Of a stretch of 57,279 nt of DNA, positions 2,902-17,300 are shown piece after piece (the first letter of the stretch is position 1; the number at the start of each line of letters is the position of its first letter). Under the pieces are notes generated by a model. The model had not been told where the DNA came from. It saw nothing but the letters and a program-made list of their open reading frames with translations, and made no database searches. The position numbers were made by a program, and so were the translations under genes. The DNA comes from a virus. Its lineage: Duplodnaviria > Caudoviricetes. The stretch lies in the IMG/VR virus record IMGVR_UViG_3300021963_006667, positions 1 through 57,279 of that record; one strand, written 5' to 3'.

Positions 2902-4920
2902 ATGAACGTTGTTTATGTGAACTACACTGTAAGAGACAGCGTATTTGATTATGCATGGCTCTCATTTAAAACCTACGTCGAAGATCACTATAAAGGCACG
3001 GCGAATTGGCATTGGCATTATCCAATCAGCGATTCCCGTGCCGATAGTCCAGAAGAACTAGCACAGAGAATATTACGACTTGACCCAAAGGTTGTGATGT
3101 TCTCTGTTTATGTTTGGAACGTCGGACTATCAAGAGAAGTTGCTCGAATCATCAAATCGCTTAGTCCCGAAATACACCTCGTATTTGGTGGCCCATACTG
3201 TGAGTACAAAGAAGATCCTGAGTACTTCACAAAATACCCATACATAGACTTCACTTGCCAGACGGACGGATACGGAGAACCTTTCATCAACGAGTTCCTC
3301 TATCAGGTAGAGACGGATCAAGACTGGAACAAGGTACCATACATGGTTCGAAAGGAAGGATACAGTCCTGTAACTTTCAACAAGCGTCAGTTTGAATGGC
3401 CGAAGAGAATCTTTGAGCGCAACTCTGACTACCTTCAAAAGGTAAAGGACGAACGCACCGGTTCCATCACCCTCATGACGATCTATGAGACGCAGCGCGG
3501 ATGCCCATACGGATGCACGTTCTGTGAATGGAGTGGCGGTATCAACTCAAAGGTTGCGTTTAAGCCAAGCGAAGATGTGATCGAAGACTTCACATGGCTC
3601 GCTAAAAACGGTTTCCTTGAGGACCTGCACATGGTAGAAGCAAACCTTGGCCAACTCGACAGGGACGTGATGCTCGTCGAGGAGTTGTGTAAGATCAAGG
3701 CAGAGTATGGAGTACCGAGAGACGTTATCCTTGCAGGACTCAGCAAGTCAAAGAAGTCAAACGTATATAAGATCGACAGACTTCTGGCTGCATCAGGACT
3801 TTCTAACGGATTCAAAATCTCGATGCAGGACATGGATCCACAGGTACTCAAGAACATCGAACGCGTGGACGAACCTTGGGAAAAGCAGTTCAAGGCATAC
3901 AACGAACTACGTGACGAGTTCGGAATCAAGCTAAGAGCCGAGATGATTCGTGGACTTCCTGGCACCACGCTCAATAGTTTCTATGAGCAGGCCGGAGAGA
4001 TGGCAAAGCACGGAGTTTTCTGGGATAAATACACGTGGCATCTTCTGCCTACGTCTCCTGCATCAAACCCTGAATACATGCAGAAGTTTAGCATCGAGGC
4101 GATAGACCTGATGACCGACTCAATGAAGGGTTCTGCATTCAACGCAAAGATGATCGACGAAGACAAGTTCACGGAGATCGGCGGACTCATCAACGATCAG
4201 AGATTCATTCAGCCGTCAAAGATAGTCGTATCCACCATGTCGTATACAAAAGAAGACTACGCCGAGATGGTCGTTTCGGACGGGATCATATTTGCCATGG
4301 AGACCGAGGGCTATCTGTCCAGGATAACAAAGTATCTCGACTCGAACGGGGTGCCACATTCGGTATTTTACAAAAGGTTCTATGATACCTTCATAGACCA
4401 GAAGTATCTTCAGCCTATCCAATTTACTGTGCTTAAAGCAATTATACAGCAGGCGTTGGACAAAGTACATCAAAAAAGCGCGGCTCCCTTCGAATACTAC
4501 AAACTCGAAGGGTTGCCATGGAACATCTACGCAAAGATCCCAACACTTATCAACATCATGATCAACGTCAACCGGGTTGAGTTCTACACCTCGATTCTTA
4601 GGTGGATCGTCGATGAGTTTGGAAGCGATCCTAAGTTGGATGACCTGATCGGTTGGTCCATGAATTCCGTGAAGTGGATAGACTACGACCCAACGAAACC
4701 GACCTCGTTCGTAACACAGTTTGACTGGACTGCGAATGAGTTGGTTGAAGGAACCTATATCAACACACCTTCAGACACACTCTACTCGAATGAAAACATG
4801 GACATCGATTGGCACCTATTGACGATGGAAAATCGAGTGAAGCAGTATTTTATTCGGCTATGCGCATTGCATGGTAGTAACAAGATGTTTGAGCATTTGA
4901 GGGTTACCCATGCTGAATAA
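2902..4920 (+). CDS. Cobalamin (B12)-binding radical SAM enzyme (class B methylase-like)
   Basis: N-terminal VMFSVYVWN...LVFGGP resembles a B12-binding domain. It has ETQRGCPYGCTFC (CxxxCxxC) and later IRGLPG and LLPTSP motifs. Confidence 0.85.
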   Translation: MNVVYVNYTVRDSVFDYAWLSFKTYVEDHYKGTANWHWHYPISDSRADSPEELAQRILRLDPKVVMFSVYVWNVGLSREVARIIKSLSPEIHLVFGGPYCEYKEDPEYFTKYPYIDFTCQTDGYGEPFINEFLYQVETDQDWNKVPYMVRKEGYSPVTFNKRQFEWPKRIFERNSDYLQKVKDERTGSITLMTIYETQRGCPYGCTFCEWSGGINSKVAFKPSEDVIEDFTWLAKNGFLEDLHMVEANLGQLDRDVMLVEELCKIKAEYGVPRDVILAGLSKSKKSNVYKIDRLLAASGLSNGFKISMQDMDPQVLKNIERVDEPWEKQFKAYNELRDEFGIKLRAEMIRGLPGTTLNSFYEQAGEMAKHGVFWDKYTWHLLPTSPASNPEYMQKFSIEAIDLMTDSMKGSAFNAKMIDEDKFTEIGGLINDQRFIQPSKIVVSTMSYTKEDYAEMVVSDGIIFAMETEGYLSRITKYLDSNGVPHSVFYKRFYDTFIDQKYLQPIQFTVLKAIIQQALDKVHQKSAAPFEYYKLEGLPWNIYAKIPTLINIMINVNRVEFYTSILRWIVDEFGSDPKLDDLIGWSMNSVKWIDYDPTKPTSFVTQFDWTANELVEGTYINTPSDTLYSNENMDIDWHLLTMENRVKQYFIRLCALHGSNKMFEHLRVTHAE

Positions 4921-5479
4921 GATTGTATTAGCGATGAATATAGAGGTCAACGAGGTCTATGATATTAGAAAGCGAACCAACGGCAGATTAAGTAACGCTT
5001 TTGTCGAGTATTGCATCGAAGACTCGTATGTCCGAGAGCGTGCACTCAAGAATCTTGTCGCAAATAAAGTCGATCGTAAGGTTGTTGAAGCGTTCAAGGT
5101 TTTAGACCTACAAACAGTATTTTCTTCCGTTCCAGATGACGAGTTAGTTGACTTTTTTGAGAAGATGTGTTATAAGATAAACGATATGATCTATATTAAG
5201 TTTGAGGCTGACACGTTTAAGGGATTCGATCTTCACGGAAAGATTGTATTGCCAGTAGTCTATTCTGGTAATCGTCCGGTTACCAAACATAAGTACATTG
5301 GATGGGTGACTCCTCATAACATCGAACACCTGTTAGAGCATGAGAAGATCACGGAAGACGTTGCAACCAAGGTGCAACTAAAATACGCAGAGATGCTACG
5401 TAAACATAAAGACGAATTCGACGTATTTTTTGACGGCTCTCCTATAGAGGAAGTTTTGGAGTATATCAACAATGATTAA
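4910..5479 (+). CDS. Hypothetical protein in the radical SAM cluster
   Basis: 189 aa ORF overlapping both neighbours by 8-11 nt; no motif recognised. Confidence 0.7.
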   Translation: MLNKIVLAMNIEVNEVYDIRKRTNGRLSNAFVEYCIEDSYVRERALKNLVANKVDRKVVEAFKVLDLQTVFSSVPDDELVDFFEKMCYKINDMIYIKFEADTFKGFDLHGKIVLPVVYSGNRPVTKHKYIGWVTPHNIEHLLEHEKITEDVATKVQLKYAEMLRKHKDEFDVFFDGSPIEEVLEYINND

Positions 5480-6485
5480 TTGGGCATTCACTTGGTCTTC
5501 ACGTAGAGCACCTGCGTGGGAAAACTGCAACGACGCAATGAACCTTGCCGTTGGACCTGAGTGGGTCTTTGGTGACTACTACCTACCGGTAAACACTCGG
5601 TATTCCGGCTCTCCTCTGAAGGAGTTTAAGGACGATGAGCGCATAAAACTTCTTAACGCACCGGCAGTAGATCAGTTCGAGGCGGAAACGTTCAAGTACG
5701 TCATAGAAGAGAATAGGTCTGGATACAACCTAGAGGTAGCCGATCGTGTAGGACATTTGATCCTTAAGGAACACGCGACTCCAGACATTTTACTCACCGA
5801 ACAAAATAGTCGTGTCATAGACCTGGACGAGGTTTACAAATACCTTCAGGAATATGATTGGGTCGCACTCGGAATCAAATTCAACAACATCGAGATCAGC
5901 GACAAGACGATCATGGCGAAGTCGTTCTTCTATGCCCGCGATAAGGATCTGAAGTTGGTAAACCTGTCAGGTCAGAATCAACCTTACAACGACGTCTCAT
6001 CGATCCCTGCTATAACGTATTGTGTGTTTAAGAAGACGAAGAACGTGGGTCTGGTCAACTGCATTGTAAACCCACACCTTGTTTCCGTTCCGCATATGGA
6101 TTCTAGGGTGTATGGAGATAAGCATCACGTGTTCGCACTCGACGCGTTTGACTCGACGATCGAGGACTACTTTCTTAAACCTACCATCGTTGGAAGCGAC
6201 ACTAACATCATCAACAACAACGTGATATTCACGAACGTGCAGTTCCAAATGTTGGAATATGAGGCGTCATTTTACCACATCCGTAATAAGTCGTACATAC
6301 CCTTTCCGAGAACGATTAAAACAAATTTAGGTGTAACTACGATCGGAAACGTGATAAGTATAAACCCAACTCGCCATTACGGGTACATATCCATAGAATA
6401 CGACGTTGACTCTATGATAAATAGCTATGGAGTTGCCTCTCAGGTAGGCAAACACAAAATTGAATACACCGTAATTAGAGGATAA
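5472..6485 (+). CDS. Hypothetical protein in the radical SAM cluster
   Basis: 337 aa ORF coupled to its neighbours; no motif recognised. Confidence 0.7.
   Translation: MINWAFTWSSRRAPAWENCNDAMNLAVGPEWVFGDYYLPVNTRYSGSPLKEFKDDERIKLLNAPAVDQFEAETFKYVIEENRSGYNLEVADRVGHLILKEHATPDILLTEQNSRVIDLDEVYKYLQEYDWVALGIKFNNIEISDKTIMAKSFFYARDKDLKLVNLSGQNQPYNDVSSIPAITYCVFKKTKNVGLVNCIVNPHLVSVPHMDSRVYGDKHHVFALDAFDSTIEDYFLKPTIVGSDTNIINNNVIFTNVQFQMLEYEASFYHIRNKSYIPFPRTIKTNLGVTTIGNVISINPTRHYGYISIEYDVDSMINSYGVASQVGKHKIEYTVIRG
6416..6423 (+). promoter_or_regulatory. Possible variant late promoter (GATAAATA) upstream of the 64 aa HxH/Cys peptide gene
   Basis: One mismatch to TATAAATA, ending 67 nt before the ATG at 6491. 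Confidence 0.35.
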
Positions 6486-6490
6486 CTATC

Positions 6491-6685
6491 ATGGTTGCCG
6501 ACGTAACAAGCACCTTTACAGCGAATAATACGGTCACCCCGACGAAGGCAGTAGGTTCAACCATCGATGCCGCTTCCTTTAGAACGATGGTGAACACGCT
6601 CGACGCGCTGATTCAACACAGTCATACGTTCACCGATGACTACACCTCAAACTGCCAGTGCAACTGTCAGCGAGGCAGCATCTAA
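6491..6685 (+). CDS. 64 aa HxH-motif protein with C-terminal CxCxC; candidate radical SAM substrate (precursor-like)
   Basis: Preceded by the RBS GAGGA. Ends HSHTFTDDYTSNCQCNCQRGSI and abuts the SPASM enzyme gene with no gap. Confidence 0.75.
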   Translation: MVADVTSTFTANNTVTPTKAVGSTIDAASFRTMVNTLDALIQHSHTFTDDYTSNCQCNCQRGSI

Positions 6686-8335
6686 GTGACCGACAATTAT
6701 GTGAACGTGAAAAGAGTTCTAAGCGAAGCTCAAAAGAAACGCTTAGAAAACCATACACCGTCTGTTGTCGAACAGGATGGTAAATTAGTCACAACCTTTG
6801 AGACGATAAACATCTCAGGTAAGGGACAAAAGACAAACAAACTCATCACGGTCCTTCCCGCAGCGCAGGAACAGGCTGTACCGTTTGCGGATGCAGAGTT
6901 TTTGTATCGTGACCTGATACAGGTTAACGCGATGTTAACGAACGCGTGTAACCTCAGTTGCTCCTACTGCTACGAACAACACAACAAAGACTTCGGTAGA
7001 TTTACAAAAGAATCCCTTAAGCAAGTCTATGATTGGATGAACTCCCGTAACAACGGTAAGAAGAAGGTGTTCCAATTTTTTGGAGGTGAACCTCTCATCC
7101 ACAAGCCTTTGATCAAAGAGTTTATCGAGACTTATGACGAAGAGTTGTCGGGCAACTACAAAGATTATCGTGGCACCTACATTTCGATGTGTACAAATGG
7201 ACTTCTATTAAATGACGAGTTCATCGAGTTCTATTTCGGTAAGCCATACACGCACATGATGTTGAGTCTCGATACGCTGAATTCAGCAATCGATCACAGA
7301 GAGATCACGCCGGCTCAGTTAAACAAGGTTCTCAAGAGTATAGACAAGATCGTGGAAGTTCTTGGAGATGACGCGAATCGACTCGTGATTCGTGCCACCC
7401 TGTCACAAGAGACCTCGCGTGACATGAAGAACTTCATCGAGACGCTGTATGAGCATGGTGTTAGAAACATGGTTGTTCATCCACTTGTACTCGACTCAAA
7501 GCATGGTTACATCTCATGGAAAGATGAGAACTGGCAGAACATGAGAAGTTCTATCTTCGGTGCCCTTGAGAAGTATGATGACCTTTACATCAGATTCTCT
7601 GAAGGCGTTGGCCTGAAGGAAGATAGTAACTGTATGGTCGGTTCACACATGGTTGCCATCGACGCATCCGGTGACTTCTCGGGTTGCTACTTCTTCACCA
7701 ACCAGAAGTCTAACGGTGCAGACATTGCCGTTCTCGGAAACGTATTCCAGGACCGAGTATACATAGATCGGTACAAGAAGTTCCAAAGCGCCTATCAGGA
7801 GATGTTCGATACCGAGGAGCAGTGCAGAACCTGTGACTATCAGGATGCCTGTTATCAGTGTCCTGCCGGTAACATGGATACCGGATCGAGAATCTTCCGG
7901 CCTGACGATATGTGTCAAAAGATCGTAAAGCTCTACGTCGACTTTCAACACGACGTCGCAAAGAAACTATTCATGCGTCACGTGAAGAAGAGATTCGACC
8001 GAGTTGAAAAGCACGGTGAAAAGGTATTTGCCGCCGAGTTGCAATACTTTTATGATAAATTTAATGGAGAAGGTGTCGATGATTTTGAACATTATTTGCG
8101 GATTGATTTGCCTCATTATTCTGATGTCATTCGTGCCTGGTCCGTGGACGGCAAAACCGAAGCCACCGATCTACATTCGCTCTACAACATCCTCGCAAAA
8201 AGATTCGACAAGCCAAGAATCGATATTGAAATCACATCTGACTTCGTAAAGTGTTATTACATCCAATGCATATCGACGATCATCTTCGACAAGAACAGAA
8301 TGAACGAAGTCAAACTTACGACTTTGCTGGAATAA
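6686..8335 (+). CDS. Radical SAM/SPASM-domain protein
   Basis: CNLSCSYC, FFGGEPL and TNG motifs; SPASM-type cysteines CMVG...GC...CRTCDYQDACYQCPAG...C; N- and C-terminal extensions. Confidence 0.9.
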   Translation: MTDNYVNVKRVLSEAQKKRLENHTPSVVEQDGKLVTTFETINISGKGQKTNKLITVLPAAQEQAVPFADAEFLYRDLIQVNAMLTNACNLSCSYCYEQHNKDFGRFTKESLKQVYDWMNSRNNGKKKVFQFFGGEPLIHKPLIKEFIETYDEELSGNYKDYRGTYISMCTNGLLLNDEFIEFYFGKPYTHMMLSLDTLNSAIDHREITPAQLNKVLKSIDKIVEVLGDDANRLVIRATLSQETSRDMKNFIETLYEHGVRNMVVHPLVLDSKHGYISWKDENWQNMRSSIFGALEKYDDLYIRFSEGVGLKEDSNCMVGSHMVAIDASGDFSGCYFFTNQKSNGADIAVLGNVFQDRVYIDRYKKFQSAYQEMFDTEEQCRTCDYQDACYQCPAGNMDTGSRIFRPDDMCQKIVKLYVDFQHDVAKKLFMRHVKKRFDRVEKHGEKVFAAELQYFYDKFNGEGVDDFEHYLRIDLPHYSDVIRAWSVDGKTEATDLHSLYNILAKRFDKPRIDIEITSDFVKCYYIQCISTIIFDKNRMNEVKLTTLLE

Positions 8336-9369
8336 GATCTGTTACGATCTATCTTGGCGATACCTGTAACTTTGATTGCGTCTATTGCGACCGTGCATAT
8401 ATTAAGCACGACATTGGTTCACAGAATCTAAACAAGGCAGACTTCGACGACATCATAGAGTTTATGAAGGTCGTAAAGGAACAGGCGAAAGACCTAAAGG
8501 CAATCTCGTTCCATGGCGGTGAACCGTTCTTGTATGTAAAAAGAATGGACGAACTACTTGACGCGCTTGATCCGATCTTCGGAAAAGACATGGAGTACTA
8601 CATCACATCGAACGGTTCGAAGATCGTCGAGAACGAATGGTTCTTTCAGAAGTGGCCAAAGATCCATATCACCCTGAGCTACGACTTTAATTATCAGCTT
8701 GTCAATAGGGAATATGTAGACCTAAAAGCAATCTCGGAAGTGATCTATCGTAACGACTGCTACATGATGTTTCAGTTCGTGATTCCACCAGATGGGTTCC
8801 ATGAGGATACTTTAGCCGAGGTGATCAGATCGTGTAAACTTGCTCGTTGTGATACGATTAACATCATTCCGCTTCGACACCATCGTGGTGCAAGAAAGTT
8901 CAAAGTCCTTATTGACGATTTTAACATGAAGTGGTATAGTGTTTATTTGATGCGGTTCATCCATACTTTGTATGTCCAGGGAATCACGCTCAACATAGAT
9001 GGCAACTATCACGGAATCGACAAGCAATATCTCAACAATCACAGCAAGATGATCCTGAGTCCGGATGGATACGTGTATCCAGAGTTTGACTACCTTGAAT
9101 ATAAGCGAAAGGAATTCAGGATCGGCAAGTGGAAGGGTGGAATCGAACTCGACCGAGTCAAGGACGAGAACCAATTCATTCTTCCAGGTTGCGTGACCTG
9201 CCACATGAGGGACGCGTGCGGGTTGAAGTACCTATACAAGATGTTTGATGAAGAACCGAAAGGAAACTGCGTCGACTTCTACACAACGATCAACCTGATG
9301 GTGAAACACCTTCACGCCTTGAAACAGAAGCCCACGTTGATGCATTGGATTGGAATCGGAGATGGATGA
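8266..9369 (+). CDS. Radical SAM protein with a partial SPASM-like C-terminus
   Basis: CNFDCVYC, FHGGEPF and TSNG motifs; C-terminal CVTCHMRDAC...C. The start is ATG 8266 or GTG 8251, overlapping the upstream gene. Confidence 0.85.
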   Translation: MHIDDHLRQEQNERSQTYDFAGIRSVTIYLGDTCNFDCVYCDRAYIKHDIGSQNLNKADFDDIIEFMKVVKEQAKDLKAISFHGGEPFLYVKRMDELLDALDPIFGKDMEYYITSNGSKIVENEWFFQKWPKIHITLSYDFNYQLVNREYVDLKAISEVIYRNDCYMMFQFVIPPDGFHEDTLAEVIRSCKLARCDTINIIPLRHHRGARKFKVLIDDFNMKWYSVYLMRFIHTLYVQGITLNIDGNYHGIDKQYLNNHSKMILSPDGYVYPEFDYLEYKRKEFRIGKWKGGIELDRVKDENQFILPGCVTCHMRDACGLKYLYKMFDEEPKGNCVDFYTTINLMVKHLHALKQKPTLMHWIGIGDG

Positions 9370-9871
9370 TCTGTACAAAGCTGCGTGCAGGGTGAAGACC
9401 ATCATGCCGATGAAGTATTACGACTGGAAGCAGTGGCACGAATGGCCGTATCGAACGATCGGTGACCATATCGTCCATGACGAAACCATCATCGATGTCG
9501 GTGCCGGCTGTGGGTTCTTGAGCATGCACCTTCTTATGACCGGTAAGTGTGACAAGGTTATTGCGTACGATACCCGCGAGAACATGTGCGAGTTTATGTC
9601 GTTGCTAAGTAATACGTTGGGTCTGGCCACACGCCTTGAAGTAAGGTGCGAACCGTTTCAAAGTAACCGACACGACAACTTGACCGTCTCGACCAGACTC
9701 GGGTTTTCAAACCTGCTACTCAATAACAAGGCTCAGACTATAACTATGGCTCGTACGAGAGAGTGCGAACCTATCATGAGATACGTCGAAACTCCAGATG
9801 ATTGGAACGAGAAGGTCGTTACGAGAGATGATGGATTTACTATGAGGTTGTTATGGAACTATCGAGAATAA
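9362..9871 (+). CDS. Class I SAM-dependent methyltransferase
   Basis: IIDVGAGCGFLS motif I followed by VIAYD. ATG 9362 overlaps the end of the upstream gene. Confidence 0.75.
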   Translation: MDDLYKAACRVKTIMPMKYYDWKQWHEWPYRTIGDHIVHDETIIDVGAGCGFLSMHLLMTGKCDKVIAYDTRENMCEFMSLLSNTLGLATRLEVRCEPFQSNRHDNLTVSTRLGFSNLLLNNKAQTITMARTRECEPIMRYVETPDDWNEKVVTRDDGFTMRLLWNYRE

Positions 9872-10224
9872 TTCTACTCTATAACGATGAATTCGAGATC
9901 CCACTCGAAACCGTTTACGGAGTGGTGTACATGGTTCCAGGATTAACGAAGCAGTTTCCCTGGTGGATTCGTCGGTTCTGTATTGAAGGCTATGACTATA
10001 ATAGTCCAGACTTTGAAGTCGTAGGAACAGGAGTTTCATCCGTAGTCGGGACACCATTAACGGAGAAGGCACACGAGTATCGTAAATCGATCTTCGGCCA
10101 ACGATGGATCGAAGATCTTAACTATGAGATCGTCTCAACCTTTCCTCCGCTTAGAGGGGTTAGCGTTCAGGGAGACGACTACACTCTTGATTCGGATTTA
10201 ATGAGGATACTACAGAATGTCTGA
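9853..10224 (+). CDS. Hypothetical protein
   Basis: 123 aa ORF overlapping both neighbours within the operon. Confidence 0.6.
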   Translation: MELSRIILLYNDEFEIPLETVYGVVYMVPGLTKQFPWWIRRFCIEGYDYNSPDFEVVGTGVSSVVGTPLTEKAHEYRKSIFGQRWIEDLNYEIVSTFPPLRGVSVQGDDYTLDSDLMRILQNV

Positions 10225-11353
10225 TGAGGGCGAAGAGTTCCGTAAGTTTAAAGACCACAATACGTACTTTGTGACAGAAGACGCGTTGATGCCACTGCAT
10301 CATGATATAACGTTTAGCCCGACTCGTAAATACTATTGTGGCGCAAATTGTCAAGTTTGTTACATCAAGAAGAAACTAAAGGCACATCTACCGTATTACG
10401 CCGAAGCCATACCCGAAAAGATCACGGTCGAAGACGAAAAGAGATGGTTCGAGATTTTTGAATACTTCTACGTGATTCGAGTAGTCGATGACCTGAAGTT
10501 TTTGAAGGAACACTATCCTCACATCTATGGATGGTACAAAGAACACGCCTCGATCTTTGAGTACGGTATGACTGACAACGCGATCGTTCAGCAGCATGAA
10601 ACTCTCATGGAGTTGGACATGAAGAGTTTGTCCGAGGTCGCTCTGAGCGAAGAGTTCATGAACAAGGTAAACTCGAAGAAGAACTACAACAGGGTGATGG
10701 AGATCCTTCAGAGTTACATCGACAAATACGACCTACACAAGATCAAGGTAATCAAGACTACAAACGAAGAGTTACCTTATCATGCGAGGGAGTTGGTCGA
10801 GTGGATCAACAATAAAGGAATCGTTACGTCTCTGCATAATGACTATCGTAAAACCAATGTAGATGACAACGAACTTGGTAACATTGACCATGACTTAGCC
10901 GGACTCTTCGACTATCAGAATAGTCACGTCCTATGTTACAACGACCGAACATATCAGGTCTATCGTGGATCGTTGCACTTATACGGAGATCGATTCTTCT
11001 ATAGTATCGATGATGCCACCGATATTAACTGGGAACCGTTTCATACTATGAATGGCGACTTTGACCATCAGAAGTTTATGGTCGATATGATCCAAGGCAA
11101 GTTCGATCTGTACTCAAAGTTTGCCGATGAGTTGAAAAATGCTGGAGGTGGTACCGCCGAAAAATTTCGAAGCTACTATATAAATACTACTGACAGCTTT
11201 ATGGTGAACGGCGACTTCAACTTCATACCCAAGATCATGTTAAGTGAAAACTCGAAATACTACAACAAACTGGTAGAGCTTGGGTATCGTCCAACTGAGG
11301 TTGGGTTGTACCTACCTGGAAGCTCACCCAAACCAATCATCGGATTTAGGTAA
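10217..11353 (+). CDS. Divergent radical SAM-like protein
   Basis: N-terminal YYCGANCQVCY (CxxxCxxC) in the usual position; no GGEP motif and no SPASM cysteines. Confidence 0.6.
   Translation: MSDEGEEFRKFKDHNTYFVTEDALMPLHHDITFSPTRKYYCGANCQVCYIKKKLKAHLPYYAEAIPEKITVEDEKRWFEIFEYFYVIRVVDDLKFLKEHYPHIYGWYKEHASIFEYGMTDNAIVQQHETLMELDMKSLSEVALSEEFMNKVNSKKNYNRVMEILQSYIDKYDLHKIKVIKTTNEELPYHARELVEWINNKGIVTSLHNDYRKTNVDDNELGNIDHDLAGLFDYQNSHVLCYNDRTYQVYRGSLHLYGDRFFYSIDDATDINWEPFHTMNGDFDHQKFMVDMIQGKFDLYSKFADELKNAGGGTAEKFRSYYINTTDSFMVNGDFNFIPKIMLSENSKYYNKLVELGYRPTEVGLYLPGSSPKPIIGFR
11179..11186 (+). promoter_or_regulatory. T4-type late promoter TATAAATA upstream of the 123 aa HxH protein gene
   Basis: Exact consensus inside the 3' end of the upstream gene, about 170 nt before ATG 11359. 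Confidence 0.6.
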
Positions 11354-11358
11354 AGACA

Positions 11359-11730
11359 ATGGCATCATATTCAAATACGACATCGGTTGCTGTCGCGACA
11401 TCGCTAAGAACAACATATACAACACCGTTGTTGGCGCAAATTGCAAGTGGTAATACCGTGCAAGCGGCGCATATGACCATGCTTAAAAACTTTGCAAATG
11501 CGATCTTGGTTCATACGCATACGTTAACGGATTACTCACAAATTAAAGAATTTGGTAATACTAATGCTAGTGCGTTTACGGTTGATACTGTTCCCCAAGT
11601 ACCAAGCGCTAACGTCGGTGCAACATACACTGCTGGAAACGTAATCGGCGCGAACGAATACACCGAAATTAGAGTAGCTGTTGAAGCTCTAAGAGTACAC
11701 AGCCATACATGGGATGATGCAATAGTATGA
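11359..11730 (+). CDS. 123 aa protein made of two HxH-motif modules homologous to the 64 aa peptide; candidate substrate or virion protein
   Basis: Contains the HTHTLTD and HSHTWDD modules. It is Thr/Ala-rich, and its stop overlaps the next start (ATGA). Confidence 0.75.
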   Translation: MASYSNTTSVAVATSLRTTYTTPLLAQIASGNTVQAAHMTMLKNFANAILVHTHTLTDYSQIKEFGNTNASAFTVDTVPQVPSANVGATYTAGNVIGANEYTEIRVAVEALRVHSHTWDDAIV

Positions 11731-13001
11731 TGCAACTACCTTGTTATGAACTCAGTGATGGTAGTTCGTTTTATTATGACTCTCACTCAAATACTATTTA
11801 CAACACAGAAGGCGAGCAATTAAGTTTGCCGCCTTCAAAAGCTATTGAATACTACGAATTAGAAGCAGCAAACCATGGGGTGGATTATAAGGTCAACAAC
11901 CCGTTTGCGATTCGTATCCTTCTCGGACATGCGTGTAACTACAACTGCACCTATTGCATGCAGAAAGATATTGGTAATCCGTTAGAGAGACCACAATCGA
12001 TTTATACCGAATCGTTTATTGCTAACATCAAGAAGAATCTAAACCTTGATAGGTTGAACAGAATTGAACTTTGGGGTGGAGAACCTTTCCTATATTGGAA
12101 AGACATGGTCGAGATCATGAAGTTCTTTGATTCTCCCAATAGAGAGTTCTTCATATCAACAAATGGTTCGGCATTTGTACAAAAACACGTTGACTTTTTC
12201 CAAACGTTGAAATCTACAATCTTAATCAGCTGTAGTCATGACGCTGTAGGCCAAAAAGAACTTCGTGGTGACGACATCCTTGAGAACCCAAAGAAGGTCG
12301 ACATCATTAAGAAGATGTTGGCTCTTCCGAATGTACAACTAGGGTTCTCGTCGGTGGTTAGCAATCAGAACCACGACCTATATGCAATCAACGACTACTT
12401 CAAGGAATTCTGTGACCGTGAAGGAATCGAGAACATGAAGATCACCTTCATCCCGGCAAAAAACTATGACGTTCATGACACAGAGATGGCTTCGTCGAAC
12501 TACATTCTGCGTGGTGAAAAGTTGAAAGCGTTCGCTCAACACCTATACGACTTCACACAAGATTCGTTCAACGATCGTACAAGATTCCTACGCAACAACA
12601 TCCTGTACTCGCCCGAGGGTGTGGTGGACTACGCTAAATTCCTGAGACAACAGACTCCGATCACGACCAAGTCTGGCTGTGGTGCAGACTCAAACGACGT
12701 TTTATCGGTTGACATTCAAGGAAACGTTCGCTTATGCCCGCACACCGATAGTAGCTTCATTGCTGGTAAGCTGGAAGATGTAGGTTCGGTAAAGATCAAA
12801 GGCATGGATCTTGCTCGTAAGAAGACTCACTGCATGAAGTGTCCGGTGAAACGACTCTGCAGATCGTCATGCCCTATCAAGTTTCCAGACCACGTGTTCT
12901 ACTCTAACTGCGCACTCGAGAAGGTCTGGTGGGGAAACATCCAACTTCACGCATTTAAATTATTATTCGGACAAACCGTGTCCATGAAAGAGGCAGCATG
13001 A
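11727..13001 (+). CDS. Radical SAM/SPASM-domain protein
   Basis: CNYNCTYC, LWGGEPF and STNG motifs; SPASM cysteines CGAD...LCPH...CMKCPVKRLCRSSCP...C. Confidence 0.9.
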   Translation: MMQLPCYELSDGSSFYYDSHSNTIYNTEGEQLSLPPSKAIEYYELEAANHGVDYKVNNPFAIRILLGHACNYNCTYCMQKDIGNPLERPQSIYTESFIANIKKNLNLDRLNRIELWGGEPFLYWKDMVEIMKFFDSPNREFFISTNGSAFVQKHVDFFQTLKSTILISCSHDAVGQKELRGDDILENPKKVDIIKKMLALPNVQLGFSSVVSNQNHDLYAINDYFKEFCDREGIENMKITFIPAKNYDVHDTEMASSNYILRGEKLKAFAQHLYDFTQDSFNDRTRFLRNNILYSPEGVVDYAKFLRQQTPITTKSGCGADSNDVLSVDIQGNVRLCPHTDSSFIAGKLEDVGSVKIKGMDLARKKTHCMKCPVKRLCRSSCPIKFPDHVFYSNCALEKVWWGNIQLHAFKLLFGQTVSMKEAA

Positions 13002-13744
13002 AACTTAACAAATCACTCATCGAAGAGCATACGTCGATGCTACGCAACCACTCGTTGCTCGTGACCAACAACATCCAAAGCAAAGACGACCTTCGAATCT
13101 TTATGGAACATCACGTGTTCGCCGTCTGGGACTTCATGTCTTTGTTGAAGACTTTGCAAAACGAAGTCGTTCCAAGCAAGACCCCGTGGATGCCCACCCG
13201 TGGGACACGTTCCGACATTGCAAGGATGATTAACGAGATCGTGACCGGTGAAGAGTCTGACATCGCACCAGGCGGAGGATCGATCAGTCACTTCGACCTA
13301 TATCTTCAGGCGATGCTTGAGGTGAATGCAGACACAAGTTCTATTACATCATTTTTGAAGAACCTAGAATGGTCTGGCACCATTCCATACCAACTTGCAC
13401 CAAAACCGGCAGAGAAGTTTATGCGAAACACGTTTGGTACCATTAATCGTGGACCGCACTGTGTTGCTGCTTCGTTTGCATATGGCAGAGAAACCATCAT
13501 TCCTGATATGTTCACTCGACTATTAACCCAACTCAATATCAGTCAACTTGATGCGCCAAAGTTTCATTATTACCTGCAGAGACACATTGAGGTCGACGGT
13601 GATGAACACGGTCCAATGTCTGAGCATCTCGTTGAATATTTCTGTGACGACGATCCTATTAAGGTTCACGAAGCCGAACAATCAGCGATTGCAGCCATCA
13701 AAGCACGTATTGACTTCTTCAACGACATAGAAAAGCTCCTGTAG
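12998..13744 (+). CDS. DUF3050 family heme-oxygenase-like (putative diiron) protein
   Basis: MEHHVFAVWDFMSLLK, INEIVxGEESD, SHFDLYLxAM, FAYGRE and YLQRHIEVDGDEHGP motifs. Confidence 0.85.
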   Translation: MKLNKSLIEEHTSMLRNHSLLVTNNIQSKDDLRIFMEHHVFAVWDFMSLLKTLQNEVVPSKTPWMPTRGTRSDIARMINEIVTGEESDIAPGGGSISHFDLYLQAMLEVNADTSSITSFLKNLEWSGTIPYQLAPKPAEKFMRNTFGTINRGPHCVAASFAYGRETIIPDMFTRLLTQLNISQLDAPKFHYYLQRHIEVDGDEHGPMSEHLVEYFCDDDPIKVHEAEQSAIAAIKARIDFFNDIEKLL

Positions 13745-13752
13745 ACGATTCT

Positions 13753-13760
13753 TATAAATA
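13753..13760 (+). promoter_or_regulatory. T4-type late promoter TATAAATA
   Basis: Exact consensus in the intergenic gap, followed by the AAGGAG RBS. Confidence 0.85.
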
Positions 13761-13785
13761 GTCATAGAACTTAAGGAGATATTCT

Positions 13786-14118
13786 ATGGCTATTAAAGCG
13801 AATTTAGTTATCGATCAGGGCACTTCTTTTAGTGCTACAGTTGACGTAACAGATACTGGTGGTGCGGCTTATAACCTTACCGGATACACTACCGCTGCTC
13901 AAATGCGTAAGAATTATAACTCTTCAAGCGCCGTAACTTTCTCAACTTCACACAACGGTGCATATGGTCAAATCACGTTATCGCTCAACGCCGCTAATAC
14001 AGCGGTTCTTGAGCCTGGACGTTACCTATACGACGTTGAGATTACGTCTGGAAGTGCTATCGTTACTCGAGTCGTCGAAGGAATCGTAACTGTTACACCT
14101 GGAATGACGAGAATCTAA
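13786..14118 (+). CDS. Virion structural protein (baseplate/fibre-attachment-like)
   Basis: ANLVIDQGTSF...AQMRK...GRYLYDVEI...RVVEGIVTVTP, a pattern common in T4-like phage structural regions; late promoter upstream. Confidence 0.7.
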   Translation: MAIKANLVIDQGTSFSATVDVTDTGGAAYNLTGYTTAAQMRKNYNSSSAVTFSTSHNGAYGQITLSLNAANTAVLEPGRYLYDVEITSGSAIVTRVVEGIVTVTPGMTRI

Positions 14119-14119
14119 C

Positions 14120-14365
14120 ATGACTATAAAGGCCACAGTCACTCAAAATGGGAAAACAACTGCTAAGGTAACACCTCAGCAGAACATACTCGTAACTAAC
14201 TATCAGGTAAGTTCGAGTAATATCACCCTAAATGATCTAGTTGACGTTGAAGTAGGCAATCTTCAAGATGGCGCGCTATTATCATATAATCAAAATACTC
14301 AATCTTGGAAAGCTATTACCTCTATAGAGAATCCAAACACAGAAGTTAATGGAGGCTTCTTCTAA
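14120..14365 (+). CDS. Small virion-associated protein
   Basis: LNDLVDV...DGALLSYN...W motif typical of fibre repeats; coupled to the next gene. Confidence 0.65.
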   Translation: MTIKATVTQNGKTTAKVTPQQNILVTNYQVSSSNITLNDLVDVEVGNLQDGALLSYNQNTQSWKAITSIENPNTEVNGGFF

Positions 14366-17300
14366 TGTCACTCATTCGTATTAAAAGATCAGGCACTTCT
14401 GGATCGCCTTCAGCACTTGCACAAGGTGAAATGGGATATTCGTTCTTTGCTGGAACCCAATCAAACGGCGGCGACCGTCTTTATATTGGTACCGGCACTG
14501 AAACAGGTGGTGTAGCTGCAAACATTGAAACCATTGGAGGTAAGTATTTTACCGCTAAGTTGAATCATGTTCCGGGCGTATTAACTGCAAATGCGGCAAT
14601 CATCGTCGATGCAAGCTCTAAGATCGACACACTCAACATCTCTAACATCACGATTACCGGCAACACGATCAGTACGACCGCTACAAACGCGACCCTGATT
14701 CTGGCACCAAACGGTACCGGTGTTATCGACGTTTCTGGTAAGCGTGTTATCAACAGCGCTGCTCCTGTCGCAAATACCGACCTCGTAACTCTTGGACACT
14801 TGAATAACACCTATACCGGCGTTCTTAACATTGCTGGTGATGCTGGAACCGACGCAATCTCTCTAACTTCAGAGACGTTGTTGGTAACCGGTGGCGTGGG
14901 TCTTTCATCCGCAGTTACGGCCAACACGATTACGGTAAACCTTGACAATACCACAGTAACCGCTGGATCTTATGGTGCCGCTGGTTCCGTTGGTACATTC
15001 ACTGTTGATGCTCAGGGTCGACTTACCGCTGCTGGCGCAACTACAATCTCGATCACTTCGGCTCAGGTCAACGACGCGACTGCTCTTGCAACCGCTTCAA
15101 GAATCGTCCTTCGTGACGCTTCAGGAAACTTTGCAGCTAACACGATCACAGCCGCTCTGGCCGGTAATGCTACCACAGCGACCACATTGGCCACGACCCG
15201 TACTCTCTGGGGTCAAAACTTTAACGGCGGTGCAAACGTAACAGGTTCGCTCACATCAGTCGGCGACATTACTGGTACCGCTGGTGTAACACTTACCGCA
15301 ACTGCAGGAACCCTTGCTCTTGCAGCCACAAGTACAAACGTAATCACACTATCGACAAACGCGACTGAAACCCTTCGCATCTCTGCGAACAACAACGTTG
15401 GTATTGGTAACACCACACCAGCCGATAAACTAAGTGTCACTGGTACGTCAAACTTCACTGGTAACATGGCACTCGGTGCAAACGTTGCTATTACCGGAAC
15501 GGTTACTTCGGGAACTTGGCAGGGTTCTATCGTTCAACCTACTTATGGTGGAACTGGTAAGTCAACTCTTCCAGCCGCATTTGCTGCACTAAGTGGGTTT
15601 ACAACGACAGCAACAGCAGCTGGTACAACGGTATTATCAAACACTTCAACCTCTTACCAGATATTTACCGGTGCGACTACTCAAACCATTACGCTTCCTA
15701 ATACGAGCACTCTGGCTACCGGTTGGTTCTTTGAGATTCAAAATAACTCGACTGGCTCGCTTACTATCAACTCGTCTACGGCGGTTAACATCGTTCCTGC
15801 AACTGTGGCCATTGCTGGCACAAGCGTTAGAGTCACATGTATCTCTATCGCGGATAACACAGCAGCCGCGTGGGACGTTGAGGTTGTAGGATTCAGTTCG
15901 TTCACCGGTACTGGTGCGTTTGCACGATCTTTAAGCCCAACTATCACAACTCCTTCCATCACGTACTCCACGTCAGCTGCGATTACCGCTGGTACTAACG
16001 CTCAGGGTCAAGGTGCTCTTACCTCTGACTACAACGTTGTAACGACAACTACCGCTAACCCATCTGGCGTGACGCTTCCAACCGGCGCAACCGGGCGTGT
16101 TGTTACTGTCGTGAACAGGGGAACCAACCCCATCACGATCTATCCAGCAACCGGTGGAGTGATTGATGCTCTTACAACAAACGCTGCAATTACACTTCCT
16201 GTAGGAAGAGAACTTACTTTCAAAGCGTCATCCGCTACTCAATGGTATTCTACGTATAATCTATCAACCGGTCTTGCAGATACGGCAACGATCCTTGCTA
16301 CGACTCGTACGCTATGGGGTCAGAACTTCAACGGTTCTGCTAACGTCACAGGCGACCTAACCTCCGTGGGTAACATAACTGGAACTGGTGCCGTTATCAT
16401 GACGGCAACTGGTGCAAACCCAATAACTTTTGTCACAAATAGCGTTGAAACTCTCAGAGTATCGGCCAACAACAACGTAGGTATTGGCAACACCGCTCCT
16501 GCAGATAAACTAAGCGTCAACGGTACAGCGTACTTTGGTGCTCCAGTTAGAATGGCAGCAAACGTTCAGATCGATGGTACCCTTACAGTCGGCGGAAGTA
16601 CAACTGTTATTAACGCGACGAACCTCTCTGTATCTGATAACATGATTTATCTGAACAACGGTTCAACGGCTACGATCACTGGAGCAGTTTCAAACGGTAC
16701 GACGTTCGTTTATACCGCGCAGAATAACTATAACACAAGCATGGTTGTGACGGTAACTGGAGTTAACCCATCAGGGTTTAACGTTACCGGTGCAACCGTA
16801 ACAGCTGCGAACTCAACAAGCTTCACGATTGCGAACACTTCTTCTCCGGGTGCATACGTAAGCGGTGGTAGTGCAACGGCTAAAACTTCTGCGTATCCAG
16901 ACCTCGGTATTGCTGGTGCATATAACGACGGTACGTATGCTCACGCTGGTATCTTCAGAGATGCTACCGACGGACGTTGGAAGTTCTATCATGGCTACAC
17001 GCCGGAACCAGACGCATCGGTATTCATCGACACCGCAAACAACTCGTTTACACTTTCGGACGTTCAAGCTTCTACGTTTATCGGGGCACTTACCGGAAAC
17101 GCTACAACCGCAAGCTCTGTTAACAACTCAGTAACGTTCAACAACGGTGGATCCGGTGCTGCATCTGGTACCACATTTAATGGTTCCGCAGCTCAGACAA
17201 TCTCGTATAACACGGTTGGTGCGTCTCCACTTGCTGGTTCTACGTCACTTACCACCCTTGGTACAATTGCGACCGGTACATGGAACGGTTCTATTATTGG

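What the first reader, a model, noticed from the sequence alone, without database searches (positions are those of the whole stretch)
6491..11730. Two small proteins share an ungapped 28-residue module ending in HxH, and each directly precedes a SPASM enzyme
Three copies align without gaps: GSTIDAASFRTMVNTLDALIQHSHTFTD (64 aa protein), GNTVQAAHMTMLKNFANAILVHTHTLTD and GNVIGANEYTEIRVAVEALRVHSHTWDD (123 aa protein, two copies). The consensus is G-x2-[IV]-x-A-x2-[FMY]-x2-[MLI]-x5-A-[LI]-x2-H-[ST]-H-T-[FLW]-x-D. The substrate-then-enzyme layout occurs twice (6491 to 6686, and 11359 to 11727). HxH motifs bind metal in trimeric T4 fibre proteins (gp12, gp37 tip). Inference: the module is either a leader/recognition sequence for the maturases or a trimerising, metal-binding element that docks onto a fibre.
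Basis: partly seen in the sequence, partly recalled or inferred. Interest (0 to 1): 0.85.

Follow-up and report, generated by a model that had tools for sequence, protein, structure and literature searches.

The report
Three-module HxH proteins matured by phage radical-SAM enzymes
Two tiny phage proteins together carry three copies of a helix-plus-His-x-His element and a cysteine ladder, always travel with four radical-SAM enzymes beside tail-fibre genes, and probably form one enzyme-modified virus-particle part, which no searched paper describes.

Summary
ORFs 6491-6685 (64 aa, "P64") and 11359-11730 (123 aa, "P123") carry three homologous copies of one module. Each ORF abuts a radical-SAM/SPASM gene.

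Across about 50 phage contigs, Ralstonia jumbo phage RP12 and one Ewingella genome, the module occurs only in these proteins. It always occurs three times per cassette, split 2+1, 1+2 or fused 3-in-1. The only invariant residues are HxHxxxD in every module. P64 adds an alternating Cys ladder ending in RG.

The cassette always holds four radical-SAM-type genes and an unknown about 320-aa protein. It usually lies beside tail-fibre genes. Similar Asn-Cys ladders end genuine tail-fibre proteins in other phages, next to relatives of the window's 424-aa enzyme.

Best reading (about 50%): the two proteins are pieces of one pseudo-threefold unit. The enzymes mature it, probably by Cys thioether links. 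The product works with the fibres, not as a free peptide.

A classical leader-core RiPP reading is weaker. Metal binding, cross-links and virion location are untested. The complex prediction never ran.

The parts
20..2893 (+). tail-fibre protein (957 aa from GTG 20; the frame is open to the window start), upstream flank of the cassette
   Evidence: PHROG tail-fibre families, e.g. phrog_1833 2.1e-22 and phrog_19602 2.7e-15. It lies in the same position in the window-type loci that reach it; in L021-L023 the match is only partial.
2902..4920 (+). B12-binding radical-SAM enzyme (g02), likely C-methyltransferase type; absent from the RP12 cassette
   Evidence: Pfam B12-binding 4.7e-9 and Radical_SAM 3.1e-8. 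NCBIfam KedN5 family 2.7e-38, below its cut-off. No RP12 counterpart.
4910..5479 (+). g03, 189-aa protein of unknown function, conserved in window-type loci
   Evidence: No family hit; syntenic.
5472..6485 (+). g04, 337-aa cassette protein of unknown function, present in all cassette types but very divergent, with no invariant catalytic residue
   Evidence: Alignment A4: 14 sequences, only M1 invariant. No PDB sequence hit at E <= 1. RP12 ORF075 is a weak match, E 0.025.
6491..6685 (+). P64: small protein with one module and a C-terminal alternating Cys ladder ending in RG-x-hydrophobic
   Evidence: GAGGA lies 8 nt before the ATG, and the stop abuts the next start.
6554..6637 (+). module copy 3 (helix, then HSHTFTD at 6617-6637)
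   Evidence: Regex; module HMM 4e-12; AF2 helix at residues 27-42.
6650..6682 (+). Asn/Cys ladder and tail NCQCNCQRGSI
   Evidence: In 31 diverse homologues C55, C57 and C59 are nearly invariant and R61 and G62 are invariant. Conservation has a two-residue period, p = 0.0013.
6686..8335 (+). g06, 549-aa radical-SAM/SPASM enzyme
   Evidence: Pfam Radical_SAM and SPASM. Best NCBIfam hit is PapB ranthipeptide maturase, 5.6e-33, 114.6 bits against a cut-off of 340. Nearest solved chain 5wgg, E 2.9e-16.
8251..9369 (+). g07, radical-SAM enzyme with four conserved C-terminal Cys. The true start is uncertain: the ORF overlaps g06 by 85 nt
   Evidence: Pfam Radical_SAM 3.1e-10. Conserved CX3CX2C plus C286, C289, C295 and C312, numbered from position 8335.
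9350..9871 (+). g08, methyltransferase-like protein; optional, found only in the window and L010
   Evidence: Weak Pfam methyltransferase hits below their cut-offs; synteny.
9853..10224 (+). g09, 123-aa unknown protein without a module; optional, found only in the window and L010
10217..11353 (+). g10, 378-aa protein with a conserved CxxxCxxC motif: a cryptic fourth radical-SAM-type protein
   Evidence: C41, C45 and C48 are invariant in 11 homologues, RP12 ORF078 included. phrog_36229 1.1e-34. No Pfam hit.
11359..11730 (+). P123: small protein with two modules and no Cys
   Evidence: phrog_31780 3.2e-5. AF2 mean pLDDT 73.
11449..11532 (+). module copy 1 (helix, then HTHTLTD)
   Evidence: 5e-10.
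11635..11718 (+). module copy 2 (helix, then HSHTWDD)
   Evidence: 2e-9.
11727..13001 (+). g12, 424-aa radical-SAM/SPASM enzyme. Its relatives sit next to Asn-Cys-ladder tail fibres in other phages
   Evidence: It is the best match of the rSAM neighbour in 26 of 40 ladder loci.
12998..13744 (+). DUF3050 / haem-oxygenase-like protein; frequent but not universal cassette member
   Evidence: Pfam DUF3050 5e-81. RP12 ORF080 is 37% identical. Absent in L018 and L019.
13786..17979 (+). downstream flank: 110-aa and 81-aa tail-fibre-associated proteins and a 1204-aa fibre protein
   Evidence: phrog_3304 2.6e-26 and phrog_15769 1.2e-28.

Best explanation
P64 and P123 are two pieces of one protein unit made of three homologous modules. 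Each module is an amphipathic helix followed by an extended strand bearing HxHxxxD. The third module continues into an alternating Cys (Asn/Gln-Cys) ladder.

Inferred steps, none shown:
- The three modules pack side by side as a pseudo-trimer.
- Their six His, and perhaps three Asp, lie on one face and may hold a metal ion, as the HxH sites of trimeric T4 fibre proteins do.
- The unit is the dedicated substrate of the cassette's four radical-SAM-type enzymes (g06, g07, g10, g12; plus a B12-rSAM in this lineage).
- These enzymes most likely staple the Cys ladder by thioether links to acidic or other residues. They may also modify the His/Asp motif.
- No leader is cut off. The mature small protein complex acts at or with the tail fibres whose genes flank it, as a hardened fibre-tip or fibre-accessory part.

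Shown here: homology of the modules, the three-per-cassette rule, fusion and fission of the pieces, obligate linkage to the enzymes, the tail-fibre neighbourhood, and the same kind of ladder on true fibre proteins elsewhere.
For: 1. Three modules per cassette. A module HMM run on six-frame translations of 70 sources found exactly three in 55. It found fewer only where a contig ends or a copy falls below threshold. It never found more than three and never hit any other ORF.

2. Different partitions of the same three modules.
- 2+1 in most loci.
- 1+2 in Ewingella americana: L091, an 85-aa one-module ORF plus a 122-aa two-module-plus-ladder ORF.
- All three in one chain in P0078, P0116, P0127 and P0137.

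3. Invariant residues. Across 27 diverse P123 sequences only H52, H54, D58, H114, H116 and D120 are invariant. Across 31 P64 sequences the invariants are M33, H43, H45, D49, R61 and G62, with C55, C57 and C59 nearly so.

4. Strand-like periodicity. Conservation alternates with period 2 from H43 to R61: 4.08 against 2.93 bits, p = 0.0013. Module 2 gives p = 0.009. This fits one conserved face of a beta strand.

5. Linkage to the enzymes.
- 48 of 54 loci found through g06 carry both proteins.
- In window-type loci P64 is followed by g06 in 17 of 17 loci that reach that far. P123 is followed by g12 in 15 of 15.
- RP12 has the whole core set at 28-43% identity.

6. Enzyme type. g06 is nearest to thioether-forming maturases: PapB family 5.6e-33 and solved chain 5wgg 2.9e-16.

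7. Protein-like behaviour.
- The AF2 monomer of P123 is a folded helical domain, pLDDT 73, pTM 0.63.
- The two-module unit is followed by a beta-rich domain or a Hint domain, or is split by a Gly-rich domain, in L050, L069 and L073.

8. Fibre context.
- Flanks are tail-fibre or virion-structural PHROGs in 8 of 10 representative loci and in the window.
- Of 80 viral loci with an NCNCNCNC-coding stretch, 40 place it within 20 aa of the end of a frame of at least 95 aa.
- 26 of those 40 have a g12-like rSAM ORF within 2 kb.
- 9 of 12 larger ladder proteins hit tail-fibre PHROGs.
Against: - No structure, metal or mass data exist.
- The complex prediction of P123 with P64 could not be run.
- The AF2 model of P64 alone is poor: pLDDT 57, one helix.
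- No fold match supports a fibre-like fold: Foldseek best E 0.96; VIA best Z 5.4, within noise.
- Periodicity is not significant for module 1, p = 0.13.
- The volume-compensation test between modules gave only weak signals: 4 of 31 positions at <= 0.03, uncorrected, with relatedness not controlled.
- A unit with one ladder per three modules differs from homotrimeric fibres, which would bring three ladders together.
- RP12 ORF074 is annotated only as 'hypothetical protein' while its neighbours are 'virion structural protein'. It may therefore not have been seen in the RP31 virion proteome. The supplementary table that would tell could not be opened.
- 14 of 40 ladder loci had no rSAM within 2 kb.
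- Co-occurrence of the genes is equally expected if both proteins are merely co-substrates.
Confidence: 0.5

Rival explanations
1. Classical RiPP pathway. P64 and P123 are precursor peptides. The helix is a leader or recognition sequence bound by the maturases. The HxH...D and Cys stretches are cores. The modified peptides are released at lysis as free bioactive compounds, such as an antibiotic, a signal or a metallophore.
For: - Small ORFs are translationally coupled to rSAM/SPASM genes.
- The enzymes fall among RiPP maturase families.
- In RP12 and 22 other loci both small genes precede the enzymes, as precursor genes do.
- The small proteins evolve faster than the enzymes.
- A cyanophage paper reads a phage rSAM maturase as an 'antibiotic synthesis gene' (PMC12801897, passages).
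Against: - The module number is fixed at three whatever the partition, unlike multi-core precursors.
- The invariant residues are HxHxxxD, not the helix.
- Module 2 leaves almost no core.
- Folded domains can follow the unit.
- No PqqD/RRE, protease or transporter family was found in the cassette.
- The position among tail-fibre genes is constant.
- Ladders elsewhere are part of the fibre proteins themselves.
Confidence: 0.2
2. Each small protein homotrimerises on its own through its helix and binds metal through three HxH motifs. The enzymes act on something else, or only on the ladder.
For: HxH sites in T4 gp37 bind iron in a trimer (PMC11705849, passages). The amphipathic helix and strand periodicity fit. 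In homotrimeric fibres of other phages three ladders would meet.
Against: This reading does not explain why a two-module and a one-module protein always occur together. It also does not explain why they are fused or re-split so that the sum stays three.
Confidence: 0.12
3. The unit is an effector against the host or against other phages, for example superinfection exclusion or counter-defence. It would be matured like HxsA of the bacterial HXS system and would not be a virion part.
For: The HXS system shows rSAM enzymes maturing a His-motif protein that acts at phage DNA entry (PMC13128918, abstract and passages). g06, g07 and g12 give weak hits to HxsB/HxsC models. The cassette also occurs in a bacterial genome, Ewingella.
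Against: All hits lie far below the HxsB/HxsC cut-offs. There are no HxS repeats, no signal peptide or peptidoglycan-binding domain was seen in Pfam, and no HxsD was found. The cassette lies in the late structural gene block on the same strand.
Confidence: 0.08
4. The unit is a scaffold or carrier for a metal or iron-sulfur cofactor, which the rSAM enzymes and the DUF3050 oxidase build or consume.
For: There are many Cys and His ligands. Several SPASM enzymes stand beside a haem-oxygenase-like protein.
Against: No cofactor-using enzyme is linked. DUF3050 is missing in some cassettes. The tail-fibre context is unexplained.
Confidence: 0.05

Closest known systems
Ranthipeptide/sactipeptide systems (PapA/PapB freyrasin; CteA/CteB SCIFF)
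   Same: A Cys-rich small substrate is encoded next to a radical-SAM/SPASM enzyme. g06's best family hit is PapB and its nearest solved chain is 5wgg. That 5wgg is CteB is recalled, not shown by a call.
   Different: - The scores lie far below the family cut-offs.
- There are four to five rSAM genes.
- A second substrate has no Cys.
- There is no detected RRE, protease or exporter.
- The module number is fixed at three.
- The setting is a phage tail-fibre block.
QhpC/QhpD of quinohaemoprotein amine dehydrogenase
   Same: A SPASM enzyme cross-links Cys to Asp/Glu inside a small protein that stays part of a larger assembly (recalled knowledge). g06 hits the QhpD model at 2.1e-19. Asp is invariant next to each HxH.
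   Different: The score is 69.6 bits against a cut-off of 453. No dehydrogenase partners are present. The system is phage-borne.
HXS antiphage system (HxsA/B/C/D), PMC13128918
   Same: Paired rSAM enzymes covalently modify a His-containing motif of a protein rather than a peptide (abstract and passages read).
   Different: HXS has HxS repeats, a periplasmic peptidoglycan-binding effector and a bacterial defence role. The hits here are far below the HxsB/HxsC cut-offs.
HxH metal sites of trimeric phage fibres and spikes (T4 gp37, gp12; iron-loaded spike tips of P2 and phi92, the latter recalled)
   Same: HxH lies on a strand, with three copies per unit and a tail-fibre context (PMC11705849 passages).
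   Different: Here the three copies come from one or two small chains, not from a homotrimeric fibre. There is no Pfam fibre-family hit. Metal is untested.
C-terminal Asn-Cys ladders of phage tail fibres with a neighbouring rSAM
   Same: P64 ends in the same kind of ladder. The neighbouring rSAM in those loci is most like the window's g12.
   Different: In those phages the ladder ends the fibre protein itself and no HxH module precedes it: 4 of 80 loci had one, all of the P64 family. Here the ladder is on a separate 64-aa protein with the HxH modules and three extra rSAM-type genes.
PAAR-type caps (recalled)
   Same: One small chain with three repeats forms a pseudo-threefold, metal-holding cap on a trimeric spike. 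This is the logic proposed here.
   Different: There is no sequence or fold similarity. This is an analogy only.

Membership tests
rSAM/SPASM RiPP systems of the thioether type (PapB/PapA, CteB/CteA) | small substrate gene next to an rSAM/SPASM maturase | tested here: met
rSAM/SPASM RiPP systems of the thioether type (PapB/PapA, CteB/CteA) | maturase reaches the curated family score (PapB NF047865, 340 bits) | tested here: not met
   g06 scores 114.6 bits, g07 47.4 and g12 44.8.
rSAM/SPASM RiPP systems of the thioether type (PapB/PapA, CteB/CteA) | Cys-rich core in the substrate | tested here: inconclusive
   Met for P64 (three to six alternating Cys). Not met for P123 (no Cys).
rSAM/SPASM RiPP systems of the thioether type (PapB/PapA, CteB/CteA) | leader-binding RRE (PqqD-like) domain, leader protease or exporter in the cluster | tested here: inconclusive
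   No such Pfam, PHROG or NCBIfam hit in any cassette protein. g03, g04 and g09 have no family, so a divergent one cannot be excluded. The N-terminal extension of g06 is missing in RP12 and L023.
rSAM/SPASM RiPP systems of the thioether type (PapB/PapA, CteB/CteA) | thioether cross-links in the product | not testable with these tools
   Needs mass spectrometry.
Trimeric phage fibre HxH metal site (T4 gp37/gp12 type) | three HxH strands per site | tested here: inconclusive
   Three modules per cassette in 55 of 70 sources, never more. Their spatial arrangement is unknown.
Trimeric phage fibre HxH metal site (T4 gp37/gp12 type) | sequence membership in a known fibre family | tested here: not met
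   No Pfam family for P64 or P123. The module HMM hits no fibre ORF in about 1 Mb of loci.
Trimeric phage fibre HxH metal site (T4 gp37/gp12 type) | bound Fe or Zn | not testable with these tools
   Needs ICP-MS or a structure.
HXS system (HxsA/B/C/D) | HxsB and HxsC equivalogs above cut-off; HxS repeats; HxsD | tested here: not met
   HxsB model: 68.6 bits against 370. HxsC model: 29.4 and 30.4 bits against 267.9. The motif is HxHxxxD, not HxS repeats. No HxsD hit.
QhpD/QhpC | QhpD equivalog above cut-off | tested here: not met
   69.6 bits against 453.
Phage Asn-Cys-ladder plus rSAM fibre-tip pairing (informal) | ladder near the C-end of the protein and a g12-like rSAM in the same gene block | tested here: met
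   P64 ends NCQCNCQRGSI. g12 is in the cassette. g12 is the best match of the rSAM neighbour in 26 of 40 ladder loci.
Phage Asn-Cys-ladder plus rSAM fibre-tip pairing (informal) | ladder carried by a tail-fibre protein | tested here: not met
   P64 is a separate 64-aa protein with no fibre-family hit.

The most novel reading that the evidence does not exclude
P64 and P123 form a two-chain pseudo-trimeric, iron- or zinc-holding cap. Radical-SAM enzymes staple it covalently, with Cys-ladder thioethers to the invariant Asp of each module. It sits on the tip of a trimeric tail fibre and takes part in host recognition. It would be the first enzymatically cross-linked structural part of a virus particle, and a PAAR-like solution reached independently for fibres.
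Probability: 0.25. Interest if true: 0.9.

Novelty: new variant of a known kind. Interest (0 to 1): 0.78.

Why it matters
Radical-SAM peptide chemistry is known from bacterial natural products, cofactors and, since 2026, one antiphage effector. Here phages of unrelated lineages spend 8-11 kb on four or five such enzymes. The lineages are T4-like, phiKZ-like jumbo and others. The enzymes process a tiny, strictly three-module His/Asp/Cys protein unit placed among host-recognition genes.

If the unit is a matured fibre part, several things follow:
- Virion proteins can be post-translationally cross-linked by dedicated radical enzymes.
- Such links bear on fibre stability, host range and metal (iron) content of marine phages.
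- They also bear on why such small proteins escape annotation and proteomics. The RP12 homologue of P64 is not annotated.
- The work supplies a compact set of genes for a direct test by co-expression and mass spectrometry.

Tried and rejected
- DNA search of the region against isolate phages: no match.
- tblastn of P123 against isolate phages: only hits with E >= 5. The RP12 lead came from one of these. It counted only after confirmation by blastp (1.4e-6), family HMM (1e-11 on L059, the IMG/VR copy of RP12) and module HMM.
- Fold searches with the P123 model: Foldseek/PDB best E 0.96. VIA wide best Z 5.4 (TssK neck region), inside the stated noise range, not used.
- ESM Atlas: the nearest clusters are unnamed viral proteins, score 0.93. 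The Cxxx-repeat rSAM-target family appears only at 0.79-0.80. These are leads only.
- Scan with the two-module-plus-ladder alignment A7: returned only contigs already known.
- Volume compensation between modules: weak and not relied on.
- Earlier-findings look-ups by place and by sequence: empty.
It never entered the queue: queue full or no usable answer. There is no result of any kind.
So I cannot say whether the RP31 homologue was seen in the virion proteome.
- The script failed to write its query file, and its 'none' rows are void. One search is the valid run.
- Literature searches found no paper on this module or on the function of this cassette. Only passing mentions turned up: rSAM cassettes in the host-recognition cluster of pelagimyophages (PMC7029224, passages), and rSAM genes listed for RP12/RP31 (PMC5468394, passages).

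Full report
**What is in the window**

The window is a 57-kb fragment of a T4-like myovirus. CheckV estimates it at 27% of the genome. It carries tail-fibre, neck, terminase, sheath, portal, scaffold and major-head genes, all on the + strand. Between two tail-fibre genes (20-2893 and 14365-17979) lies a block of 12 genes:

| Name | Coordinates | What it is |
|---|---|---|
| g02 | 2902-4920 | B12-binding radical-SAM enzyme |
| g03 | 4910-5479 | unknown |
| g04 | 5472-6485 | unknown |
| P64 | 6491-6685 | small protein, 64 aa |
| g06 | 6686-8335 | rSAM/SPASM enzyme |
| g07 | 8251-9369 | rSAM |
| g08 | 9350-9871 | methyltransferase-like |
| g09 | 9853-10224 | unknown |
| g10 | 10217-11353 | unknown, conserved CxxxCxxC |
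| P123 | 11359-11730 | small protein, 123 aa |
| g12 | 11727-13001 | rSAM/SPASM enzyme |
| – | 12998-13744 | DUF3050 |

- The copies are homologous, not chance. hhalign of the P64 family against the P123 family gives 95.8%, E 7.8e-9. The two halves of P123 give 97.3%, E 2.5e-11.
- Both ORFs are real genes. Each has 29 database relatives. Median dN/dS is 0.20 and 0.36, against 0.07 for g06. dS is close to saturation, so these values are rough.
- P64 has a GAGGA 8 nt before its ATG. Its TAA is followed at once by the GTG of g06.
- The TGA of P123 overlaps the ATG of g12.

**Spread of the cassette**

- *Window-type loci.* I fetched 18 loci through P64. All share the same gene order. P64 is followed by g06 in 17 of the 17 loci that reach that far. 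P123 is followed by g12 in 15 of 15.
- *RP12.* A non-significant tblastn hit (E 8) led to Ralstonia jumbo phage RP12.
  - ORF074 (125 aa) is a two-module homologue of P123.
  - An unannotated 65-aa ORF is a homologue of P64 (tblastn 1e-5 with no feature under it).
  - ORF076, 077, 078, 079 and 080 match g06, g07, g10, g12 and DUF3050 at 28-43% identity.
  - Virion structural genes stand just upstream.
- *Viral contigs.* A scan with an alignment of g06 gave 54 loci, one of them RP12 itself.
  - 48 carry both a P64-like and a P123-like ORF.
  - The six others are two loci where the enzyme lies at or near unread sequence, three whose enzyme is only 23-31% identical, and one with an odd 127-aa module-like Cys-rich protein.
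- *Gene order in those 54 loci*.
  - P64 lies directly before g06 in 25 loci, one gene away in 16, further away in 6 and downstream in 1.
  - P123 lies directly before P64 in 22, further upstream in 20, and before g12 only in 5.
  - So the 'substrate then enzyme, twice' layout is a trait of the window's lineage. Membership in the cassette is general.
- *Family size.* A profile of 31 diverse P64 sequences found 87 clusters at E <= 0.001 among 1.84 billion representatives. The family is small but diverse.
- *Prokaryote genomes.* Among 185,579 prokaryote species genomes, four contigs hold close relatives of g06 with modules. Three are MAG contigs. One is a scaffold of the isolate Ewingella americana E4.

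**What the module is**

- *Invariant residues.*
  - Across 27 diverse P123 proteins (20-60% identity) the only invariant residues are H52, H54, D58, H114, H116 and D120.
  - Across 31 P64 proteins the invariants are M33, H43, H45, D49, R61 and G62. C55, C57, C59, D50, Y51, L37 and L40 are nearly invariant.
  - The core of the module is therefore HxHxxxD, preceded by an amphipathic helix. AF2 places helices at residues 27-42 in P64 and at 36-49 and 98-112 in P123.
- *Periodicity.*
  - From H43 to R61 of P64, conservation alternates with period two: H.H.F.D.Y.T.C.C.C.R.
  - The conserved face averages 4.08 bits and the other face 2.93 bits, p = 0.0013.
  - Module 2 of P123 shows the same pattern (p = 0.009). 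Module 1 does not reach significance (p = 0.13).
  - This is what one face of a long beta strand looks like.
- *Three per cassette.* A module HMM built from 85 copies was run over six-frame translations of the window, RP12 and 68 loci.
  - It found exactly three modules in 55 of 70 sources.
  - It found two in 7 sources, where the third is visible by eye or cut by a contig end.
  - It found one in 2 sources (contig ends) and none in 6.
  - It never found four, and it never hit any other ORF, fibre genes included.
- *Variable partition.*
  - Most cassettes are 2+1.
  - The Ewingella locus has a one-module 85-aa ORF followed by a two-module ORF with the ladder.
  - Four database proteins (P0078, P0116, P0127, P0137) carry all three modules in one chain.
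- *Attached domains.*
  - In L050 and L069 the two-module unit is followed by a beta-rich domain. In L050 a Hint-like domain follows as well (Pfam 9.3e-7, below cut-off).
  - In L073 a Pfam glycine-rich domain is inserted between the two modules.

A fixed sum of three with movable breakpoints is the signature of one structural unit built from three like parts. It is not the signature of a multi-core precursor.

**The enzymes**

- g06 has the full SPASM cysteine set. Its best family match is the PapB ranthipeptide maturase (5.6e-33, 114.6 bits against a cut-off of 340). CXXX-repeat, QhpD, HxsB and anaerobic sulfatase maturase models follow.
- The nearest solved chain to g06 is 5wgg/5why (2.9e-16). 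From memory this is the thioether synthase CteB.
- g12 has a full SPASM pattern. g07 has CX3CX2C plus four C-terminal Cys. g10 keeps only CxxxCxxC.
- None reaches a curated cut-off, so these are new subfamilies.
- g04 is present in every cassette type but has no invariant residue and no PDB relative. It looks like a scaffold or partner rather than an enzyme.
- No PqqD/RRE domain, protease or transporter was detected.
- The N-terminal extension of g06 is absent in RP12 and L023.

**Link to tail fibres**

- In 8 of 10 representative non-window loci the genes flanking the cassette hit tail-fibre or virion-structural PHROGs.
- A published note says that rSAM cassettes are part of the variable host-recognition cluster of pelagimyophages (PMC7029224, passages).
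- Earlier notes of this scan claimed that Asn-Cys ladders with rSAM enzymes sit at phage fibre tips. I tested that claim.
  - I read 80 viral loci with an NCNCNCNC-coding stretch.
  - In 40 of them the ladder lies within 20 residues of the end of a frame of at least 95 aa.
  - 26 of those 40 have an rSAM-like ORF within 2 kb, always most like g12. 14 have none in that span.
  - 9 of 12 larger ladder proteins hit tail-fibre PHROGs.
  - Only 4 of the 80 have HxHxxxD before the ladder, and these are P64 family members.
- So P64 ends in a motif that elsewhere is the very tip of fibre proteins. The enzyme type that goes with it needs no HxH module.

**Reading**

The best-supported explanation has three parts:
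1. P64 and P123 are pieces of one three-module unit.
2. The unit is the substrate of the cassette.
3. The product works with the fibres.

The inferred steps are as follows:
- The three helices and three strands pack as a pseudo-trimer.
- Six His, and perhaps three Asp, form a metal site like the HxH sites of T4 gp37 (PMC11705849, passages).
- The Cys ladder is stapled by thioethers, by analogy with PapB, CteB and QhpD.

The HXS system shows that paired rSAM enzymes can modify a His motif in a protein (PMC13128918).

Weaknesses:
- There is no structural or chemical evidence.
- The P64 model is poor and there is no fold match.
- Inter-module compensation is only weak.
- There is one ladder per unit, not three.
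- The RP12 homologue is annotated as hypothetical while its neighbours are virion proteins. The deciding supplementary table was closed.
- The planned complex prediction never ran.

Rivals are a classical diffusible RiPP (0.2), separate homotrimers (0.12), an HXS-like effector (0.08) and a cofactor scaffold (0.05).

**Novelty**

Six literature searches found nothing on this module or on the function of this cassette. The chemistry class is known. The three-module HxHxxxD unit, its fixed stoichiometry, its four-enzyme cassette and its phage fibre setting are not. Related ladder systems have been noted by other agents of this scan, so the general theme is not unique to this window.

Noticed in passing
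L024:8889-9086 (Ralstonia phage RP12, NC_041911, about 82,888-83,085): A 65-aa ORF homologous to P64 is not annotated in the RP12 or RP31 records. tblastn shows 'none' under the match.
   Followed up: yes
L098-L177 (viral contigs): C-terminal Asn-Cys ladders end many phage proteins, several of them tail fibres. A g12-like radical-SAM gene lies within 2 kb in 26 of 40 cases.
   Followed up: partly
window 10217-11353: g10 has an invariant CxxxCxxC motif but no Pfam radical-SAM hit. It is a cryptic, very divergent radical-SAM-type protein conserved from T4-like phages to RP12.
   Followed up: partly
L050:4488-5846: A 452-aa form of P123 carries a Hint (intein-like) domain after the two modules and a beta-rich domain. 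This hints at self-cleavage or protein ligation in some lineages.
   Followed up: no
L091 (Ewingella americana E4 scaffold), 6059-14243: The cassette occurs in a cultured enterobacterial genome next to a transposase and a weakly tail-like gene. There g06 is 696 aa with a long N-terminal extension. Whether this is a prophage, a tailocin or a chromosomal system was not settled.
   Followed up: partly
L003/L009 (same viral contig): g06 and g12 are each split into two ORFs in this contig. The cause could be a frameshift, a stop or an assembly error.
   Followed up: no
L075:9292-9675 (543-kb viral contig): A 127-aa protein has a module-like helix, HTHTHxD and a large Cys-rich domain. It lies next to an rSAM only 24% identical to g06 and may be a distant variant of the system.
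   Followed up: no
window 8251-8335: g07's ORF overlaps the end of g06 by 85 nt, and the same overlap is kept in relatives. The true start (perhaps the ATG at 8266) is uncertain.
   Followed up: no
window 2300-2893 and fibre genes of L028, L035, L043: Fibre genes next to the cassette in different lineages share the same C-terminal domain, with the motif ARYADLAEKY (phrog_22593/19602).
   Followed up: partly
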